Positions 16,850 to 36,158 of a stretch of DNA of 45,256 nucleotides are shown here, piece after piece. Source of the DNA: Escherichia phage bob; sequence record NC_073072.1. One strand, 5' to 3'. Both the position numbers and the translations under genes were made by a program. Under the pieces are notes generated by a model, which searched no databases, was not told the origin of the DNA, and was given only the letters and a program-made list of their open reading frames with translations. How positions within the stretch are numbered: the stretch's first letter is position 1; every line of letters starts with the position of its first letter.

Positions 16850-19492
16850 TCATCGTTTGTAAAGTACACCACCCGGTTTGGTCGCTTTCACAATCTCAGC
16901 CTTTACCGACTCGGTGATTTGCTTTCCGAACGCCTGCGCGGTGCGAGGGTCCGGTCCGCTAACACTGGTGTCCGTCTTACCGGTCCCCATGTTAACGTTG
17001 GTCGTTACAATCATCCCACCGCCCACACCGGCAGCGGCAACGCCCAGTTTCCCGTCTGGCCCGCGCTTCAGTGGCATGATGGCCTCGGGTCCGGCCTCAC
17101 CCATCAATCCTGCGCCCTTAGCGAACGCCTGAACGCCATAACTGAAAAAGGTAGGCTGGCTTACCACTTTCCCCGAATAGGCCGCCAGATTGCCTCCTGC
17201 GTACGCTCCGCCGTCCGCATTCTTAGTGAGGCCCGAGAAGATAGCGCCGAACAATCCGTTTTTGCCGCCGTCGCCACCGAAAGCGCTAACGATCGACTTG
17301 AACGCCTGCGAGGTAGCCAGCTTGATTAACTCGCTCAGGATGGATTTGACCATATCCTTCGCGTTAATCTTGCCCGTCTCGAAAAATTCGTTCATCGTGT
17401 CCTGCATAGCGCTGAACGTGAATTTTGTGAGTGACGTCATCTGCGTATATCCGTTACCCATCTCATCCACGCTATCCTTAAGCCCGCGACTGAATCCATC
17501 CCATAGCGAGGCGTTAGCGCCGGTCTGCGCCTCCTGCACTTCCCGCAGCTTAGACACCGCCTTGTCTATATCGGTATCGTTAGCGCCAACCCTCTTCAGA
17601 CGGTCGATTAGCTGCAATTCTTCGCGCAGGTTAGCCGCTTCGCGCGTAGACAGTGCGTAGCCCGCAGCGGTGGCTTTTATCTCGGCGTTCTGATTCTTGA
17701 GGAAAGCGTCGACCTGCGCGTGGGCTTTGATCTGCTTCTCTTTCGCATCCAGCAATTTGGCTTCTTCGACGATCTGCTCGCGGACTTCCTTCACGCGTCC
17801 AAATTCGACCATCTGCTGCTTTTCGGCTGCCGTTAGTGCTCTTTCTTTGCTCGCAGCGATTAACTGCTCATTATCCGCGATCAGCTTGTTTAGGGCCGCT
17901 TGAGCGCGTTGCGTGCGGGTCTGCGTCGATGCATTGGCTTCGATCTGCTTGCCAGACTCACGAAGCTGGGCTAATTCGCTTCGCGCGACTTCCAGCATTT
18001 TCAGACCGGCATCGACTCGAATTGCCGCGGCCTTTTTCGGTGCGGGGTCTTTGTAGCGTTCGTTGACCTGCTTCACCGCCTCGGCTAGTTCTTTCTCGTT
18101 AATAACACCGCGCTTATTCAGCAAATTGAGGCGGGCGATCTCGTCGGCTCGCCGCTTCGCGTTGGTTGCGTACTCCTTCTCAAACGCGGCGCGGTCGCGG
18201 GCGGTGCGGTTTGCCTCCTCGTTCGCCTTTGCTGCTTCATCCGCGGCGCTGGCGCTGTCTCGCTCTGCACGGTTGCGCAGGGTGAGCGACGCCACTACCT
18301 TTTCCTGGGCGACCAGTTCGCTGTAAAGCATGTTAATACGCGCTTTCTGCGCTTCGGTCATCACCCCACCGGCAGCGTTTACCGCTTTCATCTCGGCATA
18401 GTACGCCGTGGTCATGCGCTGCAAGGACTCACGCGCTTTCATCTCGGACTCATTCGAGGACTGCGCGCGGCCCACATCAAGGATTGCATCCCACATAGAT
18501 TTAGCTGCCGATGTGACGACGTTCATCGAACGCTCAAGCGTACCCATGTTGGACTTAATATCGTTGGTCATAGTGGTAAACGACGCTGCGGCTGTTTTGT
18601 TAGCCAGCGCGACCGCGTCTGTCTCGCGACCCATATCCACAAGCGACTGAACCTGCTGGATCTGCGCTTCGTTTACGACGTGATACTTATCTGCCAGTGC
18701 GCGCAAACCGCCTACTGGGTCAGTTGACAGCTTCGCTACCGCCGCGACAACATCTTCGATCGGCTGGCCCGACGTCTTTGCAAAGTCATTAACCACCTTT
18801 GCTAACCCGCCGAAATCCGCTCCGGCTTTAACCCCAGCCGCCGCCAGTGACTGAATTGTGTCACGCGTCTTGCGGAATGATCCGCCCATGCGCTCGGCGT
18901 TCTCGGATAGCACCAGGATCTGGTTTGCAGTGAGGCCGGAAATGTTACCTGACAGCGCCAGCGTCTTGTTAAGCGCTGCGACCTGGTTCTCTGCGCGGGA
19001 CGTAATTGCCACCCCTACGCCTAACGTTGCCGTTAGTGCTGCAATGCCGATCCCTACCGGACCGAGGACGCCCGCAACATAACGCAGCGTGTTACCAAAT
19101 CCGCCGAACGCCCCAGTTAACTGCGGTAACTGCTGAAGCATAACGCGGTGTACTGGCATCCCCATCTCAAGCGTAACTGCGATATCCTGTAACTGGAATG
19201 CGGCGTTACGCGAGGCAAAGCCCAGGTTTTTGGTCGACATGCCTAACCTGTTGGCAAGTCGCTCCTGTTTCGTCATGCCATCGGCTGCGCGCTGCGATTC
19301 AGTCGCCAGCTTTTCCATTCCGCCCGCGGCGTCACTCGTCACCTTTTTGGATTTGCCGAGGGTGTCGTTTAATTTCTTAACCTTGTTTTCTGTGTTCTCG
19401 GATTTCTGTGCGAAGGAGTCCAGCACAGTATTCGCCGTTCTGATTTGTGCAACATCAGCCTTTAGCGTGATGCCTGCTGCCTGATCTGCCAT
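16850..19492 (-). CDS. tail tape measure protein
   Basis: 880 aa; long Ala/Gln/Lys-rich helical region, Gly-rich C-terminus; AAGGGGA RBS; downstream of chaperone G/GT. Confidence 0.85.
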   Translation of the reverse strand: MADQAAGITLKADVAQIRTANTVLDSFAQKSENTENKVKKLNDTLGKSKKVTSDAAGGMEKLATESQRAADGMTKQERLANRLGMSTKNLGFASRNAAFQLQDIAVTLEMGMPVHRVMLQQLPQLTGAFGGFGNTLRYVAGVLGPVGIGIAALTATLGVGVAITSRAENQVAALNKTLALSGNISGLTANQILVLSENAERMGGSFRKTRDTIQSLAAAGVKAGADFGGLAKVVNDFAKTSGQPIEDVVAAVAKLSTDPVGGLRALADKYHVVNEAQIQQVQSLVDMGRETDAVALANKTAAASFTTMTNDIKSNMGTLERSMNVVTSAAKSMWDAILDVGRAQSSNESEMKARESLQRMTTAYYAEMKAVNAAGGVMTEAQKARINMLYSELVAQEKVVASLTLRNRAERDSASAADEAAKANEEANRTARDRAAFEKEYATNAKRRADEIARLNLLNKRGVINEKELAEAVKQVNERYKDPAPKKAAAIRVDAGLKMLEVARSELAQLRESGKQIEANASTQTRTQRAQAALNKLIADNEQLIAASKERALTAAEKQQMVEFGRVKEVREQIVEEAKLLDAKEKQIKAHAQVDAFLKNQNAEIKATAAGYALSTREAANLREELQLIDRLKRVGANDTDIDKAVSKLREVQEAQTGANASLWDGFSRGLKDSVDEMGNGYTQMTSLTKFTFSAMQDTMNEFFETGKINAKDMVKSILSELIKLATSQAFKSIVSAFGGDGGKNGLFGAIFSGLTKNADGGAYAGGNLAAYSGKVVSQPTFFSYGVQAFAKGAGLMGEAGPEAIMPLKRGPDGKLGVAAAGVGGGMIVTTNVNMGTGKTDTSVSGPDPRTAQAFGKQITESVKAEIVKATKPGGVLYKR

Positions 19493-19555
19493 TATGCAGT
19501 CCCCTTTTTTATGCAGTTGCCGATTGATATTGTATCAGCGATTTCAAAACAAACC

Positions 19556-19745
19556 TTATTCAGTCTCAGACGAGGGGGGCCATTGACCCCCGTCTAGTCT
19601 GAAAGACTGGGGTGCTGTCCCGCTGTCCCGATCGGCTGAAAACCGCGGCAGCACTGGCGGGGACGGGGTGCTGTCCCGTTTTGTCCCGCCCCTTGTTTGT
19701 CCCGCTTTCTGTCCCGCTTACTTTATGCAATAAAACTGCATAGGT
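19556..19745. repeat. copy A of a ~180-190 bp dispersed element (G-rich hairpin plus GTCCCG iterons)
   Basis: First ~75 bp TTATTCAGTCTCAGACGAGGGGGGCCAtTGACCCCCGTCTAGTCTGAAAGACTGGGGTGCTGTCCCGCTGTCCCG near-identical to 35971-36045; both copies end TTTATGCA..TTGCATA. Confidence 0.8.
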
Positions 19746-19764
19746 ATGCACATTTACAGGGCGT

Positions 19765-19874
19765 GACAAAACGGGACGTCCCGCCTGTCCCGCTTTGAGT
19801 TTATGCAATGAAAGTGATTAGATATGCGGTTTTACAGAGGCGGGACAAAACGGGACGTCCCGCCTGTCCCGCTT
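19765..19874. repeat. two perfect 31 bp direct repeats each containing the 12 bp palindrome CGGGACGTCCCG
   Basis: GACAAAACGGGACGTCCCGCCTGTCCCGCTT at 19765-19795 and 19844-19874, inside a ~79 bp imperfect tandem unit. Confidence 0.8.
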
Positions 19875-19876
19875 CA

Positions 19877-20553
19877 TTATGCGGGGTTCTGCTGCGCCAT
19901 CTCATCAAGCGCGATTCGTTCCATTAGCTTGATATCTTTAAACGCGCGCTGCTCGTTTTCGATACCGTGCATCTTAAATAACCACTCCAGCACGCCGTAG
20001 TCGATGCCGTATGCGCCACCAAATCCGGTGCGCCATTGCGTGGAGCAATCTGTGAAGACTGCGACTACCTTCGCGTTGTCGGGCCATAGCGCAACAGGTG
20101 GACAAACATCTTCGGGGGCCGCACCCCATAAACTTGCGGCTAAATCTTCGGAGGGTGGCGGCGGGCCATAAAAGCGTCGCGCCGCCTCAATTAGTTTTTT
20201 TCACGCAATCCCATCAGTTCGAGATAGTACGACGTGTGGAACACACCGAACGCGCGTGGGTAGTTGACCACCAGGCGGCGGACGTTCTCCGAGTTAAATT
20301 CGTCTGGCAGATTCCAGCCTTCCGCGACGTGCATGATGGCCTCGACCATAACGTTAAAGCCGTCCGGGTCATTGTCGTCATATTCCGACAGCTTTCGTTC
20401 GGTGTCCTGCATGGTTTGCGAAAATTCGTCGATCGGGCGGTGGCGGACGGTAAAAGTCATCTTGCCTGGTTCGTTCTCACCTGGGCGCGGGATCTCAATC
20501 GGCAGCTTAAAGGTCGGCTTAGGGTCAAGTGTAAAGAGTGGTGCTTTAGCCAT
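19877..20553 (-). CDS. tail assembly chaperone GT-like fusion product via programmed -1 frameshift (predicted)
   Basis: Slippery A_AAA_AAC at 20194-20200 (coding strand) as last codons of G; -1 frame open ~106 codons to TAA at 19877-19879 with no start codon for its first ~70 codons. Confidence 0.5.
20191..20553 (-). CDS. tail assembly chaperone (lambda G-like)
   Basis: 120 aa acidic protein between major tail and tape measure genes; ATG 20553 with GGAGAA RBS. Confidence 0.65.
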   Translation of the reverse strand: MAKAPLFTLDPKPTFKLPIEIPRPGENEPGKMTFTVRHRPIDEFSQTMQDTERKLSEYDDNDPDGFNVMVEAIMHVAEGWNLPDEFNSENVRRLVVNYPRAFGVFHTSYYLELMGLREKN

Positions 20554-20567
20554 TGTAGTATTCTCCA

Positions 20568-20592
20568 ATAAAAAAGGGGCCGTGCTGGCCCC
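20568..20592 (-). terminator. rho-independent terminator after the major tail protein gene
   Basis: On minus strand GGGGCC-agcac-GGCCCC followed by TTTTTT. Confidence 0.55.
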
Positions 20593-20622
20593 ATATTAAC
20601 ACTCGCTATTTAAGCGACCAAA

Positions 20623-21348
20623 TCAAGACAATGCCTCGACCAGATCCTTACGGTAAATAACCATATCAGACTGCATGGCCAGAGTAGACTGCACCGTTTC
20701 CACGTTGTTTACTTCAGCGGAAGGAATCTTCTGGAAAGATACCTTAGCCGGGTAAATACGAATTTCACCTTTGCCGCTTGCCGCTGCCGGGTTAGTGAAC
20801 TTGATCACAGTGGTTTTCTGTGTGTCGTCCAGGTCTTCCAGGATTGGGCGGATCGGGTCTTCTTCGTCGTGGGTGAAAGTGTAAGTCTGAACCAACGGGT
20901 TTTTCGTGGTGTTCAGACTGATCGCGGTGTTCACCTGTAACGGCTGGAAGGTAGTAGTCTGCTGGTCGCCACCAGACACGGCAACGTTAGTAATGAAAGG
21001 GAAGTCGATAAAGCTCGACACCTTCACCACTTCGCCCGGCGTGCCTACGCTGAAAGCGCCGGTCGGGTATTTTGTGACGTCCGAGGAGTCGAAGCGCGCC
21101 AGCGTCACGTCGTTCTCGGCTACTTTACCCACGATGAATGCGCGGTTAAGCGCTCGGACCCACGGGGTTTTAGTGAACATAACAACGTCGCCAACAACCA
21201 GGCCATGCGATGCCGCGCAGGTAATTACGCAACCTTGCGTAAGGTCAGAGATTGATGCGGTGGCGTTGGTAGCTGCCGTAACAGCGATGCCGCTGCCTAA
21301 TACGGACCCGATCTGGACGCTGGACCCGTTGGGGAGTTGATAACCCAT
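20623..21348 (-). CDS. major tail protein
   Basis: 241 aa; Thr/Val/Ser-rich; AGGAGC RBS; terminator after it; directly upstream of chaperone. Confidence 0.7.
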   Translation of the reverse strand: MGYQLPNGSSVQIGSVLGSGIAVTAATNATASISDLTQGCVITCAASHGLVVGDVVMFTKTPWVRALNRAFIVGKVAENDVTLARFDSSDVTKYPTGAFSVGTPGEVVKVSSFIDFPFITNVAVSGGDQQTTTFQPLQVNTAISLNTTKNPLVQTYTFTHDEEDPIRPILEDLDDTQKTTVIKFTNPAAASGKGEIRIYPAKVSFQKIPSAEVNNVETVQSTLAMQSDMVIYRKDLVEALS

Positions 21349-35970: not shown

Positions 35971-36158
35971 TTATTCAGTCTCAGACGAGGGGGGCCACTG
36001 ACCCCCGTCTAGTCTGAAAGACTGGGGTGCTGTCCCGCTGTCCCGCTCCTCTGGAAGCCGCGCCATCCGGGGCGGGACGGGGGTGCTGTCCCGCTTTGTC
36101 CCGCCCCTAGTCTGTCCCGCTTTTTGTCCCGTTTGGTTTATGCAGTTTTATTGCATAA
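35971..36158. repeat. copy B of the ~180-190 bp dispersed element
   Basis: Same hairpin GACGAGGGGGGCCAcTGACCCCCGTC and six GTCCCG iterons; aligns with 19556-19745. Confidence 0.8.

What the first reader, a model, noticed from the sequence alone, without database searches (positions are those of the whole stretch)
19877..20553. Predicted programmed -1 ribosomal frameshift producing a GT-like chaperone fusion
The chaperone ORF ends CGT GAA AAA AAC TAA on the coding strand: seven A then C forms the canonical slippery heptamer A_AAA_AAC (plus coords 20194-20200) as its last two sense codons. The -1 frame is closed by TGA just 5' of the heptamer, then stays open ~106 codons (KKLIEAARRFYGPPPPSEDL...IALDEMAQQNPA) to TAA at 19877-19879. 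It has no start codon in its first ~70 codons, so it can only be made as a fusion. An open stretch that long has a chance probability under 1% at this GC content. The position between major tail and tape measure genes matches the conserved G/GT arrangement.
Basis: partly seen in the sequence, partly recalled or inferred. Interest (0 to 1): 0.6.

Follow-up and report, generated by a model that had tools for sequence, protein, structure and literature searches.

The report
Tail chaperone G/GT -1 frameshift site
This E. coli phage (a Dhillonvirus) almost certainly makes its longer tail-assembly chaperone by a programmed backward ribosome slip at AAAAAAC, the ordinary, well-known arrangement of long-tailed phages, though none of the eight database records of close relatives that I read in detail marks it.

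Summary
On the minus strand a 120-aa tail assembly chaperone gene (20191-20553, Pfam Phage_TAC_4) ends CGT GAA AAA AAC TAA. The in-phase heptamer A_AAA_AAC (20194-20200) abuts the stop. The -1 frame opens exactly there and runs 107 codons to TAA 19877-19879, with no ATG/GTG/TTG before codon 70. This frame encodes a DUF1799 domain (E 2.8e-21).

- Among 20 Dhillonvirus sequences, the start-less first 69 codons show 62 synonymous against 15 non-synonymous changes in that frame, and 12/65 and 5/72 in the other two. The stretch is therefore translated.
- All 79 viral loci examined that carry a homologous T domain have A_AAA_AAC or G_GGA_AAC in phase at the end of the upstream gene. In 78 of them the stop follows directly.
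- The same holds for 7 of 11 BLAST-found phages and both G-ascertained contigs. The other four phages have A_AAG or A_AAA two codons before the stop.
- A GC hairpin 7 nt downstream coincides with suppressed synonymous variation.

Homologous chaperones are already annotated or described as frameshift products in Serratia phage Scapp, Solomon, Stevie and U136B. AAAAAAC next to the stop was described for phage Loki. Verdict: real, interpretation supported, a new member of a known kind, low novelty.

The parts
20623..21348 (-). Tail tube (major tail) protein gene, 241 aa, immediately upstream of the chaperone gene
   Evidence: Pfam PF08813 Phage_tail_3 E 8.1e-32; phrog_584 major tail protein E 8.6e-74
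20576..20592 (-). Terminator-like GC hairpin followed by a T-run, between the tube gene and gene G. It may lower transcription into G/T.
   Evidence: Consensus scan only: GGGGCCAGCACGGCCCC TTTTTTATTG. Function is inferred.
20563..20566 (-). GGAG ribosome-binding site, 9 nt before the ATG of G
   Evidence: Read directly from the sequence. Relatives annotate the same 363-nt CDS.
20191..20553 (-). Gene G: tail assembly (tape measure) chaperone, 120 aa plus TAA stop. This is the product of standard decoding.
   Evidence: Translation. Pfam PF08748 Phage_TAC_4 E 1.5e-23, matching 1-120 of the protein to 1-124/124 of the profile. 102 synonymous against 19 non-synonymous changes among 20 Dhillonvirus sequences.
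20209..20212 (-). GGGA, a weak Shine-Dalgarno-like element whose 3' end is 8 nt before the heptamer. Candidate upstream stimulator.
   Evidence: Anti-SD duplex energy is -4.0 kcal/mol for windows starting at -15 to -13 in this window. Across 33 diverse relatives there is a positional peak at -15 to -12: mean -3.9 against a background of -0.9, sd 1.0. A conserved Gly codon could also explain this.
20194..20200 (-). Slippery heptamer A_AAA_AAC, in phase with G (codons AAA AAC preceded by A)
   Evidence: Among 79 viral loci, 62 have the same heptamer and 17 have G_GGA_AAC. It is invariant in all 20 Dhillonvirus sequences.
20191..20193 (-). Zero-frame stop codon TAA directly abutting the heptamer. 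Candidate pause element; it also fixes the C-terminus of G.
   Evidence: A stop (TAA or TGA) directly follows the heptamer in 78 of 79 viral loci, in the 7 BLAST-found phages that carry a heptamer, and in both G-ascertained contigs. The one exception is L074, with TCA.
20157..20186 (-). Predicted stimulatory hairpin: arms GGCGGCG (20180-20186) and CGCCGCC (20157-20163), 16-nt loop region, starting 7 nt after the heptamer
   Evidence: MFE -17.1 kcal/mol, z -1.3. Only 1 of the first 14 third-codon positions of the -1 frame varies, against 68 of 93 elsewhere (Fisher p 3e-6); both arms are invariant and the variable sites fall in the loop. Relatives at about 60% identity keep the stem, one through C to U giving a G-U pair.
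19877..20200 (-). T extension: -1 frame, 107 codons plus TAA. The predicted GT fusion is 225 aa (G 1-120 followed by 105 residues starting LIEAARR).
   Evidence: Translation. No canonical start before codon 70. Codons 3-69 show 62 synonymous against 15 non-synonymous changes in this frame, and 12/65 and 5/72 in the other frames.
19898..20128 (-). DUF1799 domain within the T extension (residues 25-101)
   Evidence: Pfam PF08809 E 2.8e-21; phrog_680 E 9e-31. AF2 model has pLDDT 89-95 over residues 41-100. It matches annotated tape measure chaperone products in BFVD.
19493..19876 (-). Non-coding, repeat-rich spacer between the T stop and the tape measure gene. It is context, not part of the frameshift signal.
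   Evidence: Indels and no codon periodicity among 19 Dhillonvirus sequences. Tandem units of about 79 bp and seven GCGGGACA octamers.
16850..19492 (-). Tape measure protein gene, 880 aa
   Evidence: Pfam PF06791 TMP_2 E 2.2e-44 and PF09718 E 2.1e-13; phrog_24 E 2.7e-181

Best explanation
This is a lambda-type G/GT tail assembly chaperone pair expressed by programmed -1 ribosomal frameshifting.

**Proposed mechanism**
- Most ribosomes translate gene G (20553-20191) and terminate at TAA, giving the 120-aa chaperone.
- A minority slip back one nucleotide on A_AAA_AAC (20200-20194). This happens either with tRNA-Lys and tRNA-Asn in the P and A sites, or one step later with tRNA-Asn in the P site and the slowly decoded stop codon in the A site.
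- These ribosomes continue with CUA AUU GAG... in the -1 frame and add 105 residues. The result is a 225-aa GT protein with junction ...REKN-LIEAARR and a C-terminal DUF1799 domain.
- Three features are the likely modulators of the rate: the abutting stop codon, a GC hairpin 7 nt downstream, and possibly a weak SD-like GGGA 8 nt upstream.
- A_AAA_AAC is a comparatively poor shift site in E. coli, which fits a low GT:G ratio.

**Inferred function, by analogy with lambda**
- The G parts coat the tape measure protein.
- The T domain recruits the tail tube protein.
- Neither ends up in the virion.

**Shown here:** the ORF geometry, the family assignments, coding selection on the start-less frame, and conservation of the shift site.
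**Inferred:** the slip itself, its efficiency, the roles of the stop, hairpin and SD-like element, and the protein functions.
For: **Geometry and phase**
- Searches confirm the ORFs, the heptamer phase and the lack of a start codon.

**Family assignments**
- G is PF08748 and T is PF08809. The flanking genes are tube and tape measure.
- phrog_17368 spans both parts.

**Coding selection on T codons 3-69**
- 62 synonymous against 15 non-synonymous changes in the -1 frame.
- 44 of 59 variable columns fall at third codon positions.

**Conservation of the shift site**
- All 79 viral loci examined with a T homologue have an in-phase X_XXA_AAC: 62 A-type and 17 G-type. In 78 a stop follows at once.
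- Of 11 phages found by tblastn, which is independent of the motif, 4 have AAAAAAC+stop and 3 have GGGAAAC+stop. The other 4 have A_AAG or A_AAA within two codons of the stop.
- Two contigs found through G alone have AAAAAAC+stop and open T frames of 108-109 codons.

**RNA-level constraint**
- Synonymous variation is suppressed from the heptamer through the hairpin (Fisher p 3e-6).
- In 33 diverse relatives the 40-nt window just after the heptamer has the lowest mean MFE (-14.1 against about -9 kcal/mol) and the lowest mean z.

**Precedent in relatives and literature**
- Scapp has a joined 'Frameshift Product' CDS with the same geometry.
- Genome announcements for T1-like phages report the chaperone frameshift: PMC4319613, PMC8104045 and PMC8407766.
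- Loki has AAAAAAC next to the stop (PMC5313236).
- The T model matches the Scapp (236 aa) and Solomon (210 aa) chaperone products.
- Background on lambda G/GT and on the shiftiness of A_AAA_AAC comes from PMC5009743.
Against: - No protein, ribosome-profiling or reporter data exist for this phage or, as far as I found, for any Dhillonvirus.
- The hairpin is not statistically exceptional on its own. z is -0.29 for the 74-nt fold, +1.28 for 136 nt and -1.3 for 55 nt.
- A hairpin at this position is absent or weak in several relatives, for example L030, L066, L073, L088 and L093.
- The SD-like signal may simply reflect a conserved glycine codon.
- Most distant viral loci were ascertained partly through the peptide pattern KKLIEAAR. 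This inflates the count of AAAAAAC, although the G_GGA_AAC and KKLIAVASA lineages and the BLAST- and G-ascertained loci do not have this bias.
- None of the eight Dhillonvirus records whose CDS tables I read, or whose called protein I retrieved (HK578), annotates a join.
Confidence: 0.9

Rival explanations
1. Transcriptional slippage. RNA polymerase inserts one extra A in the A7 run (20195-20201), so a fraction of mRNAs encode G and T in one frame, with junction ...REKK-LIEAARR. Ribosomes do not slip.
For: The window has 7 consecutive A. Of the 78 viral loci counted, 40 have A7, 17 have A6 and 1 has A8.
Against: - 17 viral loci and 3 BLAST-found phages have G_GGA_AAC, with only three A, at the identical position. 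Polymerase slippage cannot explain these.
- What is conserved is the in-phase X_XXY_YYZ rule, not the homopolymer length.
- From general knowledge, not tested here: efficient slippage by E. coli RNA polymerase needs runs of about 9 or more.
- The downstream hairpin and the abutting stop have no role in this model.
Confidence: 0.04
2. T is a separate protein. Ribosomes start or re-start translation at a non-canonical codon just after the G stop (CUA/AUU at T codons 3-4, as the HK578 annotation 'MEAARRFYG...' implies) or at the internal GTG/ATG at codons 70 and 77. No fusion is made.
For: - Gene callers and annotators list stand-alone DUF1799 ORFs of 70-131 aa. All 120 listed database hits carry PF08809 only.
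- HK578_016 is annotated from the Ile codon.
- Termination-reinitiation at overlapping stop/start sites is common in phages (general knowledge).
Against: - No ATG/GTG/TTG occurs before codon 70, yet codons 3-69 are under coding selection.
- The position of the first canonical start varies (codons 32, 45, 70, 77) among near-identical phages.
- No SD lies at a suitable distance before the AUU.
- Independent initiation would not require an in-phase slippery heptamer, yet one is kept in two forms across the family.
- The two residues encoded by the heptamer in the T frame (KK or GK) are part of the conserved match.
- Fused profiles and annotated products exist.
Confidence: 0.04
3. The frame break is an inactivating mutation or a sequencing error in a once-continuous gene, or the open -1 frame is a chance feature without function.
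For: A 107-codon open frame has about 1% chance probability, which is small but not negligible across a whole genome scan.
Against: - The same break, at the same heptamer, is present in 157 independent Dhillonvirus records.
- It is also present in relatives down to about 31% identity.
- The frame matches a curated Pfam domain at E 2.8e-21 and shows purifying selection.
Confidence: 0.01

Closest known systems
Phage lambda gpG/gpGT (Levin, Hendrix & Casjens 1993; Xu, Hendrix & Duda 2004, 2013, 2014; summarised in PMC5009743)
   Same: - Two ORFs between the major tail and tape measure genes.
- The downstream ORF is in the -1 frame without its own start.
- An in-phase X_XXY_YYZ heptamer lies near the end of G.
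- The expected outcome is a low-level fusion product.
   Different: - The heptamer is A_AAA_AAC, not G_GGA_AAG.
- The stop codon abuts the heptamer.
- The sequence families differ: PF08748/PF08809 here, with no hit to the lambda G or T families at E <= 0.1.
- A 384-nt non-coding spacer separates T from the tape measure gene.
Tape measure chaperone frameshift of Serratia phage Scapp and of T1-like phages (Solomon, Stevie, U136B; Drexlerviridae)
   Same: - Homologous T domain at 33-40% identity, with a fold match to the Scapp and Solomon products.
- Same gene order.
- The shift site lies at the very end of G. Rtp, JLBYU38 and Henu8 have AAAAAAC TAA.
- The frameshift is already annotated or reported.
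   Different: - Different genus (Dhillonvirus).
- Scapp, Rogue1, phiKp_14 and Webervirus use A_AAG or A_AAA sites two codons before the stop instead of a full heptamer.
- T is directly followed by the tape measure gene in those phages.
Acinetobacter phage Loki gp12/gp13 (PMC5313236)
   Same: [quoted passage not shown] Loki's putative chaperone is a weak fold match to the T model (rank 15, E 0.075, TMq 0.64).
   Different: It is a distant phage of another host, with no detectable sequence-level relationship shown here. It too is only predicted, not demonstrated.
E. coli dnaX -1 frameshift signal (A_AAA_AAG with an upstream SD-like element and a downstream hairpin)
   Same: It works in the same way: an A-rich Lys-codon heptamer (PMC5009743), a candidate SD-like element upstream and a GC hairpin a few nucleotides downstream. 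The dnaX stimulators are from my general knowledge.
   Different: - It is a cellular gene with about 50% efficiency, and the shifted frame terminates almost at once.
- Here the last base is C, which is less shifty in E. coli according to PMC5009743.
- Here the shifted frame adds a 105-residue domain, and the stimulators are only inferred.

Membership tests
Lambda-type G/GT tail assembly chaperone pair made by programmed -1 frameshift (functional class) | Two consecutive ORFs located between the major tail (tube) gene and the tape measure gene | tested here: met
   Tube PF08813 at 20623-21348, G at 20191-20553, T at 19877-20200, tape measure PF06791/PF09718 at 16850-19492
Lambda-type G/GT tail assembly chaperone pair made by programmed -1 frameshift (functional class) | The downstream ORF is in the -1 frame, overlaps the 3' end of G and has no start codon of its own | tested here: met
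   The -1 frame opens at 20200. The first ATG/GTG/TTG is at codon 70 of 107.
Lambda-type G/GT tail assembly chaperone pair made by programmed -1 frameshift (functional class) | In-phase slippery heptamer X_XXY_YYZ inside the overlap | tested here: met
   A_AAA_AAC at 20194-20200, in phase with G
Lambda-type G/GT tail assembly chaperone pair made by programmed -1 frameshift (functional class) | The arrangement and shift site are conserved in relatives despite sequence divergence | tested here: met
   79 of 79 viral loci examined, 7 of 11 tblastn-found phages with a heptamer plus 4 with A_AAG or A_AAA, and 2 of 2 G-ascertained contigs
Lambda-type G/GT tail assembly chaperone pair made by programmed -1 frameshift (functional class) | The extension frame is under protein-coding selection | tested here: met
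   Codons 3-69: 62 synonymous against 15 non-synonymous changes in the -1 frame, and 12/65 and 5/72 in the other frames
Lambda-type G/GT tail assembly chaperone pair made by programmed -1 frameshift (functional class) | The fusion protein is detected, at a low fixed ratio to G | not testable with these tools
   Needs mass spectrometry, western blot or a reporter assay
Lambda-type G/GT tail assembly chaperone pair made by programmed -1 frameshift (functional class) | G binds the tape measure protein, T binds the tube protein, both are required for tail assembly and both are absent from virions | not testable with these tools
   Needs genetics and biochemistry
Pfam PF08748 Phage_TAC_4 | Score above the curated gathering threshold over the full profile | tested here: met
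   83.7 bits against a cutoff of 21.1; profile positions 1-124 of 124
Pfam PF08809 DUF1799 | Score above the curated gathering threshold over the full profile | tested here: met
   76 bits against a cutoff of 26; profile positions 1-80 of 80
Lambda gpG / gpT sequence families | Detectable sequence match of G or T to the lambda-specific Pfam families | tested here: not met
   The Pfam scan at E <= 0.1 returned only PF08748 for G and only PF08809 for T. The pair is an analogue or distant relative, not a sequence-level member.
Tail assembly chaperone 'spiral' fold (Pell et al. 2013; recalled via PMC5313236 reference list) | The G structure superimposes on solved tail assembly chaperone structures | tested here: inconclusive
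   The G model came from a 3-sequence alignment and has pLDDT 68. Foldseek against PDB gave no match with E < 0.8. PDB sequence search gave nothing.
Transcriptional-slippage recoding sites | A long homopolymer run at the site, conserved as a run | tested here: not met
   The run is A7 here. 17 homologous viral loci and 3 phages have GGGAAAC with only three A.

The most novel reading that the evidence does not exclude
The whole TAC_4/DUF1799 chaperone family, with T homologues in more than 1,100 phage records (Dhillonvirus, Drexlerviridae, and phages of Klebsiella, Pseudomonas, Ralstonia and Stenotrophomonas), may share one compact three-part bacterial -1 frameshift cassette. The parts would be:
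- X_XXA_AAC with the zero-frame stop codon directly abutting it;
- an SD-like element 8-12 nt upstream;
- a GC hairpin 6-8 nt downstream, built on the conserved E-A-A codons.

In this reading the stop codon is a selected pause element that sets the G:GT ratio, not just the end of G. The Leu codon after the heptamer is CTA or CTG (which keeps the stop) in all but one of about 90 loci.
Probability: 0.3. Interest if true: 0.35.

Novelty: new member of a known kind. Interest (0 to 1): 0.2.

Why it matters
- **Annotation.** None of the eight Dhillonvirus records I checked annotates the fusion. Five had their CDS tables read (JLBYU37, SECphi18, UDS3lw, Gluttony, Opt212). HK578 had its called protein retrieved. 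mckay and Pubbukkers showed only 'hypothetical protein' under the match. These records list a truncated 31-39 aa 'DUF1799' fragment, an ORF with a forced non-canonical start, or nothing. The 225-aa GT protein is therefore missing from their proteomes and from the protein databases searched here.
- **Function of DUF1799.** The result gives the domain a concrete context, as the T-type domain of a frameshifted tail assembly chaperone.
- **Experimental use.** The family offers a large natural series of a minimal heptamer-plus-stop frameshift signal in E. coli phages. It could be used to measure how an abutting stop codon, a hairpin and an SD-like element tune low-level -1 frameshifting.
- **Overall.** The biology itself is the expected, textbook arrangement.

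Tried and rejected
- **Large protein index with the predicted fusion.** It returned only 3 hits, two G-only and one T-only, so it could not show fused relatives.
- **PDB sequence searches.** Nothing for G or for the T profile.
- **Foldseek against PDB.** Nothing for the T model or for the low-confidence G model. Homology to solved chaperones or to lambda T is therefore neither shown nor excluded.
- **Rfam.** No family reaches threshold in 19400-20700.
- **Whole-segment RNA folds.** They are not better than shuffles. Only the local hairpin, the positional profile and the synonymous-site suppression carry weight.
- **ORF 19566-19808 (80 aa, TTG) in the T-to-tape-measure spacer.** No family hit, and indel-rich, non-periodic variation. 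I treat it as non-coding.
- **Literature.** I found no paper describing the frameshift in Dhillonvirus or HK578. Xu et al. 2004 is not in the held library, so I could not check whether close relatives are in its table.
Full report
**1. What the window is**

The 2-kb stretch around the finding is 95-98% identical to 36 Escherichia phages of the genus Dhillonvirus (HK578-like siphophages: Opt212, JLBYU37, mckay and others) and matches 157 phage records in all. The genes of interest lie on the minus strand.

**2. Checking the observation**

- Reading 19700-20800 on the minus strand and translating confirms every stated coordinate.
- An ORF from ATG 20553 (GGAG 9 nt upstream) to TAA 20193-20191 encodes 120 aa ending ...LMGLREKN. 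Its last codons are CGT GAA AAA AAC TAA.
- The heptamer A_AAA_AAC (20200-20194) is in the X_XXY_YYZ phase of that ORF and is followed at once by the stop.
- In the -1 frame a TGA (20203-20201) lies just 5' of the heptamer. After it, 107 sense codons run to TAA 19879-19877.
- The first ATG/GTG/TTG in that frame is GTG at codon 70.
- The chance of such an open stretch is 0.8-1.0%.
- Pfam identifies the upstream gene (20623-21348) as a tail tube protein and the downstream gene (16850-19492) as a tape measure protein.
The only corrections concern the junction residue (see section 5) and a 384-nt spacer between T and the tape measure gene.

**3. What the two ORFs are**

- G is a full-length match to Pfam Phage_TAC_4 (PF08748, E 1.5e-23).
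- The -1 extension is a full-length match to DUF1799 (PF08809, E 2.8e-21).
- In PHROGs, G matches phrog_569 and the extension matches phrog_680. A single 213-position family, phrog_17368, matches G at positions 1-107 and the extension at 147-212. Annotated fused versions therefore exist among phages.
- Neither part hits the lambda G or T families at E <= 0.1, and neither has a solved relative by sequence.
- An AlphaFold model of the extension built from 56 homologues (pLDDT 80; 89-95 over residues 41-100) has no PDB fold match.
- In the viral predicted-structure library, however, it matches proteins named 'tape measure chaperone'. These include the 236-aa product of Serratia phage Scapp and the 210-aa product of Klebsiella phage Solomon (E 1e-6 to 1e-5, TM 0.78).

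**4. Is the start-less frame translated?**

I aligned 20 Dhillonvirus sequences (18 distinct) in register.

| Region | Frame | Synonymous | Non-synonymous |
|---|---|---|---|
| T codons 3-69 (before any start codon) | -1 | 62 | 15 |
| T codons 3-69 | 0 (G frame) | 12 | 65 |
| T codons 3-69 | +1 | 5 | 72 |
| Gene G | 0 | 102 | 19 |

- In T codons 3-69, 59 columns vary, 44 of them at third codon positions of the -1 frame.
- The position of the first canonical start codon differs between near-identical phages: codons 32, 45, 70 and 77.
- The stretch is therefore a translated protein segment that cannot be reached by ordinary initiation.

**5. Conservation of the shift site**

- A search of viral contigs with the extension returned 78 distinct loci at 100% down to 31% identity.
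- After resolving three cases that my first script mis-parsed, all 79 sequences (78 loci plus the window) have an in-phase heptamer at the end of the upstream gene, exactly where T homology begins. Of these, 62 have A_AAA_AAC and 17 have G_GGA_AAC.
- In 78 of the 79 the zero-frame stop (TAA or TGA) follows directly. L074 has TCA and stops six codons later.
- One of the patterns used to find candidates was KKLIEAAR, so the A-type count is inflated by ascertainment. I therefore also examined loci found independently of the motif:
  - Of 11 phages taken from a tblastn search (1159 records match), Rtp, JLBYU38, Henu8 and phiES15 have AAAAAAC TAA.
  - Ralstonia YO122_1, Pseudomonas Medea1 and Stenotrophomonas SBP4phi2 have GGGAAAC plus a stop.
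  - Scapp, phiKp_14, Rogue1 and a Webervirus have A_AAG or A_AAA two codons before the stop.
  - Two metagenomic contigs found through G alone (about 60% identity) have AAAAAAC plus a stop and open -1 frames of 108-109 codons.
- The alternation of A and G in the first three positions, always in phase, is what the tandem-slippage rule predicts. Neither a homopolymer model nor an initiation model predicts it.

**6. Candidate stimulators**

- **Hairpin.** A hairpin (GGCGGCG 20186-20180 with CGCCGCC 20163-20157) starts 7 nt after the heptamer.
  - On its own it is not statistically remarkable: z is -0.3 to -1.3, and +1.28 for the 136-nt fold.
  - Within Dhillonvirus, however, only 1 of the first 14 third-codon positions of the T frame varies, against 68 of 93 afterwards (Fisher p 3e-6).
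  - The quiet zone ends exactly at the 3' arm, and the two variable sites inside it lie in the loop.
  - Relatives at about 60% identity keep the stem, one through a C-to-U change that gives a G-U pair.
  - In 33 diverse representatives the 40-nt window starting 0-5 nt after the heptamer has the lowest mean folding energy of a 560-nt profile (-14.1 against about -9 kcal/mol). It also has the lowest mean z (-0.77), a modest signal, and several relatives lack a convincing hairpin.
- **SD-like element.** Complementarity to the anti-Shine-Dalgarno sequence peaks for windows starting 12-15 nt upstream of the heptamer. The mean is -3.9 against a background of -0.9 kcal/mol, and -4.0 in this window at UGGGAU. 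This may merely reflect a conserved glycine codon.
- **Abutting stop.** The stop codon is the most constant extra feature. [quoted passage not shown] Both points fit a low GT:G ratio such as the 1:30 of lambda.

**7. Mechanism proposed**

- Standard decoding gives G (120 aa).
- A small fraction of ribosomes slip -1 on A_AAA_AAC and continue with CUA AUU GAG..., giving a 225-aa GT protein. The junction is ...REKN-LIEAARR if Asn is decoded before the slip, and ...REKK-L... only for a P-site-only slip or an A8 transcript.
- By analogy with lambda (PMC5009743), G domains coat the tape measure protein and the DUF1799 domain recruits the tube protein.
- Geometry, family membership, coding selection and site conservation are shown. 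The slip, its rate, the stimulators and the protein functions are inferred.

**8. Rivals**

- **Transcriptional slippage** is disfavoured. The G_GGA_AAC lineages have only three A, and the window has only seven.
- **Independent initiation or reinitiation** is disfavoured. It is implied by HK578_016, annotated as 'MEAARRFYG...', and by the stand-alone DUF1799 ORFs that fill the databases. It does not explain coding selection upstream of any start, the variable position of starts, or the conserved in-phase heptamer.
- **Sequencing error or chance** is excluded by conservation.

**9. Comparison with what is known, and novelty**

- The G/GT frameshift is a textbook feature of long-tailed phages.
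- Homologous chaperones are already annotated or reported as frameshift products in Scapp (joined CDS) and in T1-like phages (PMC4319613, PMC8104045, PMC8407766).
- What appears to be missing is its annotation in Dhillonvirus. I read the CDS tables of five records (JLBYU37, SECphi18, UDS3lw, Gluttony, Opt212) and retrieved the called protein of HK578. For mckay and Pubbukkers the hit table lists only 'hypothetical protein' under the match. They show a G gene plus either nothing, a 31-39 aa fragment or a forced start. I found no paper on it.
- I therefore file it as a new member of a known kind, with low interest.
- The modestly novel residue is the family-wide heptamer-plus-stop cassette with a constrained hairpin. 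It would be a convenient natural system for studying stop-codon-assisted -1 frameshifting.

**10. Things that led nowhere**

These are listed under 'tried and rejected'. In brief:
- The large protein index returned too few hits for the fusion.
- The G model was too poor for a fold test.
- Rfam holds nothing for this region.

Noticed in passing
window 19493-19876 (minus strand), between the T stop and the tape measure start: An unusual 384-nt spacer; in T1-like relatives and phiES15 the tape measure gene follows T within about 40 nt or overlaps its end. It holds two tandem units of about 79 bp (19722-19874), each with the palindrome CGGGACGTCCCG followed by TTTT. It also holds seven copies of the octamer GCGGGACA and a strong conserved hairpin near 19560-19600. 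Variation among 19 Dhillonviruses is indel-rich and non-periodic, so it is non-coding. These may be regulator-binding arrays or terminator/promoter elements. The Stevie announcement (PMC4319613) mentions stoperator-like repeats of unknown role in T1-like phages.
   Followed up: partly
window 36031-36120 (minus strand): A second cluster of five GCGGGACA octamers. The window has 15 copies in all against 2.2 expected, and 0 of 100 shuffles reach 15. It is probably the same regulatory motif as in the T-to-tape-measure spacer.
   Followed up: no
window 20576-20592 (minus strand): A terminator-like hairpin, GGGGCCAGCACGGCCCC followed by TTTTTTATTG, lies between the tail tube gene and gene G. It could reduce transcription of the chaperone and downstream tail genes relative to the abundant tube protein.
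   Followed up: no
GenBank relatives: L001 (JLBYU37), L002 (SECphi18), L003 (UDS3lw), L082 (Gluttony), L083 (Opt212); protein P0039 (HK578_016): The annotations are inconsistent and miss the fusion. G is variously called 'hypothetical protein', 'major tail protein', 'tail length tape measure protein' or 'tail assembly chaperone'. T is absent, a 31-39 aa DUF1799 fragment, or (in HK578) a 104-aa ORF given a Met at an Ile codon.
   Followed up: yes
L084 (Scapp) 1195-1210; L092 (phiKp_14), L093 (Rogue1), L094 (Webervirus PMM-G3) near 880-910 / 760: Some homologous chaperone pairs lack a full heptamer. They have A_AAG or A_AAA two codons before the G stop (GAA AAG TAT TAA; CAA AAG AGT TAA; GCA AAG GTC TAA; GCA AAA GTT TAA). 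This suggests single-tRNA-Lys slippage in those lineages.
   Followed up: partly
L074 around 1340-1365: This is the only locus of about 90 where the stop does not abut the heptamer (AAAAAAC TCA ...; the stop comes six codons later). It is a natural variant for testing whether the adjacent stop matters.
   Followed up: no
T residues 1-11 (window 20168-20200) and homologues: The peptide KKLIEAAR directly after the shift site (a predicted helix) and its coding sequence CTGATCGAGGCNGC are conserved far more strongly than the next 30 or so residues across relatives of 31-46% identity. Selection on the protein and selection on the RNA hairpin's 5' arm cannot be separated with the present data.
   Followed up: partly
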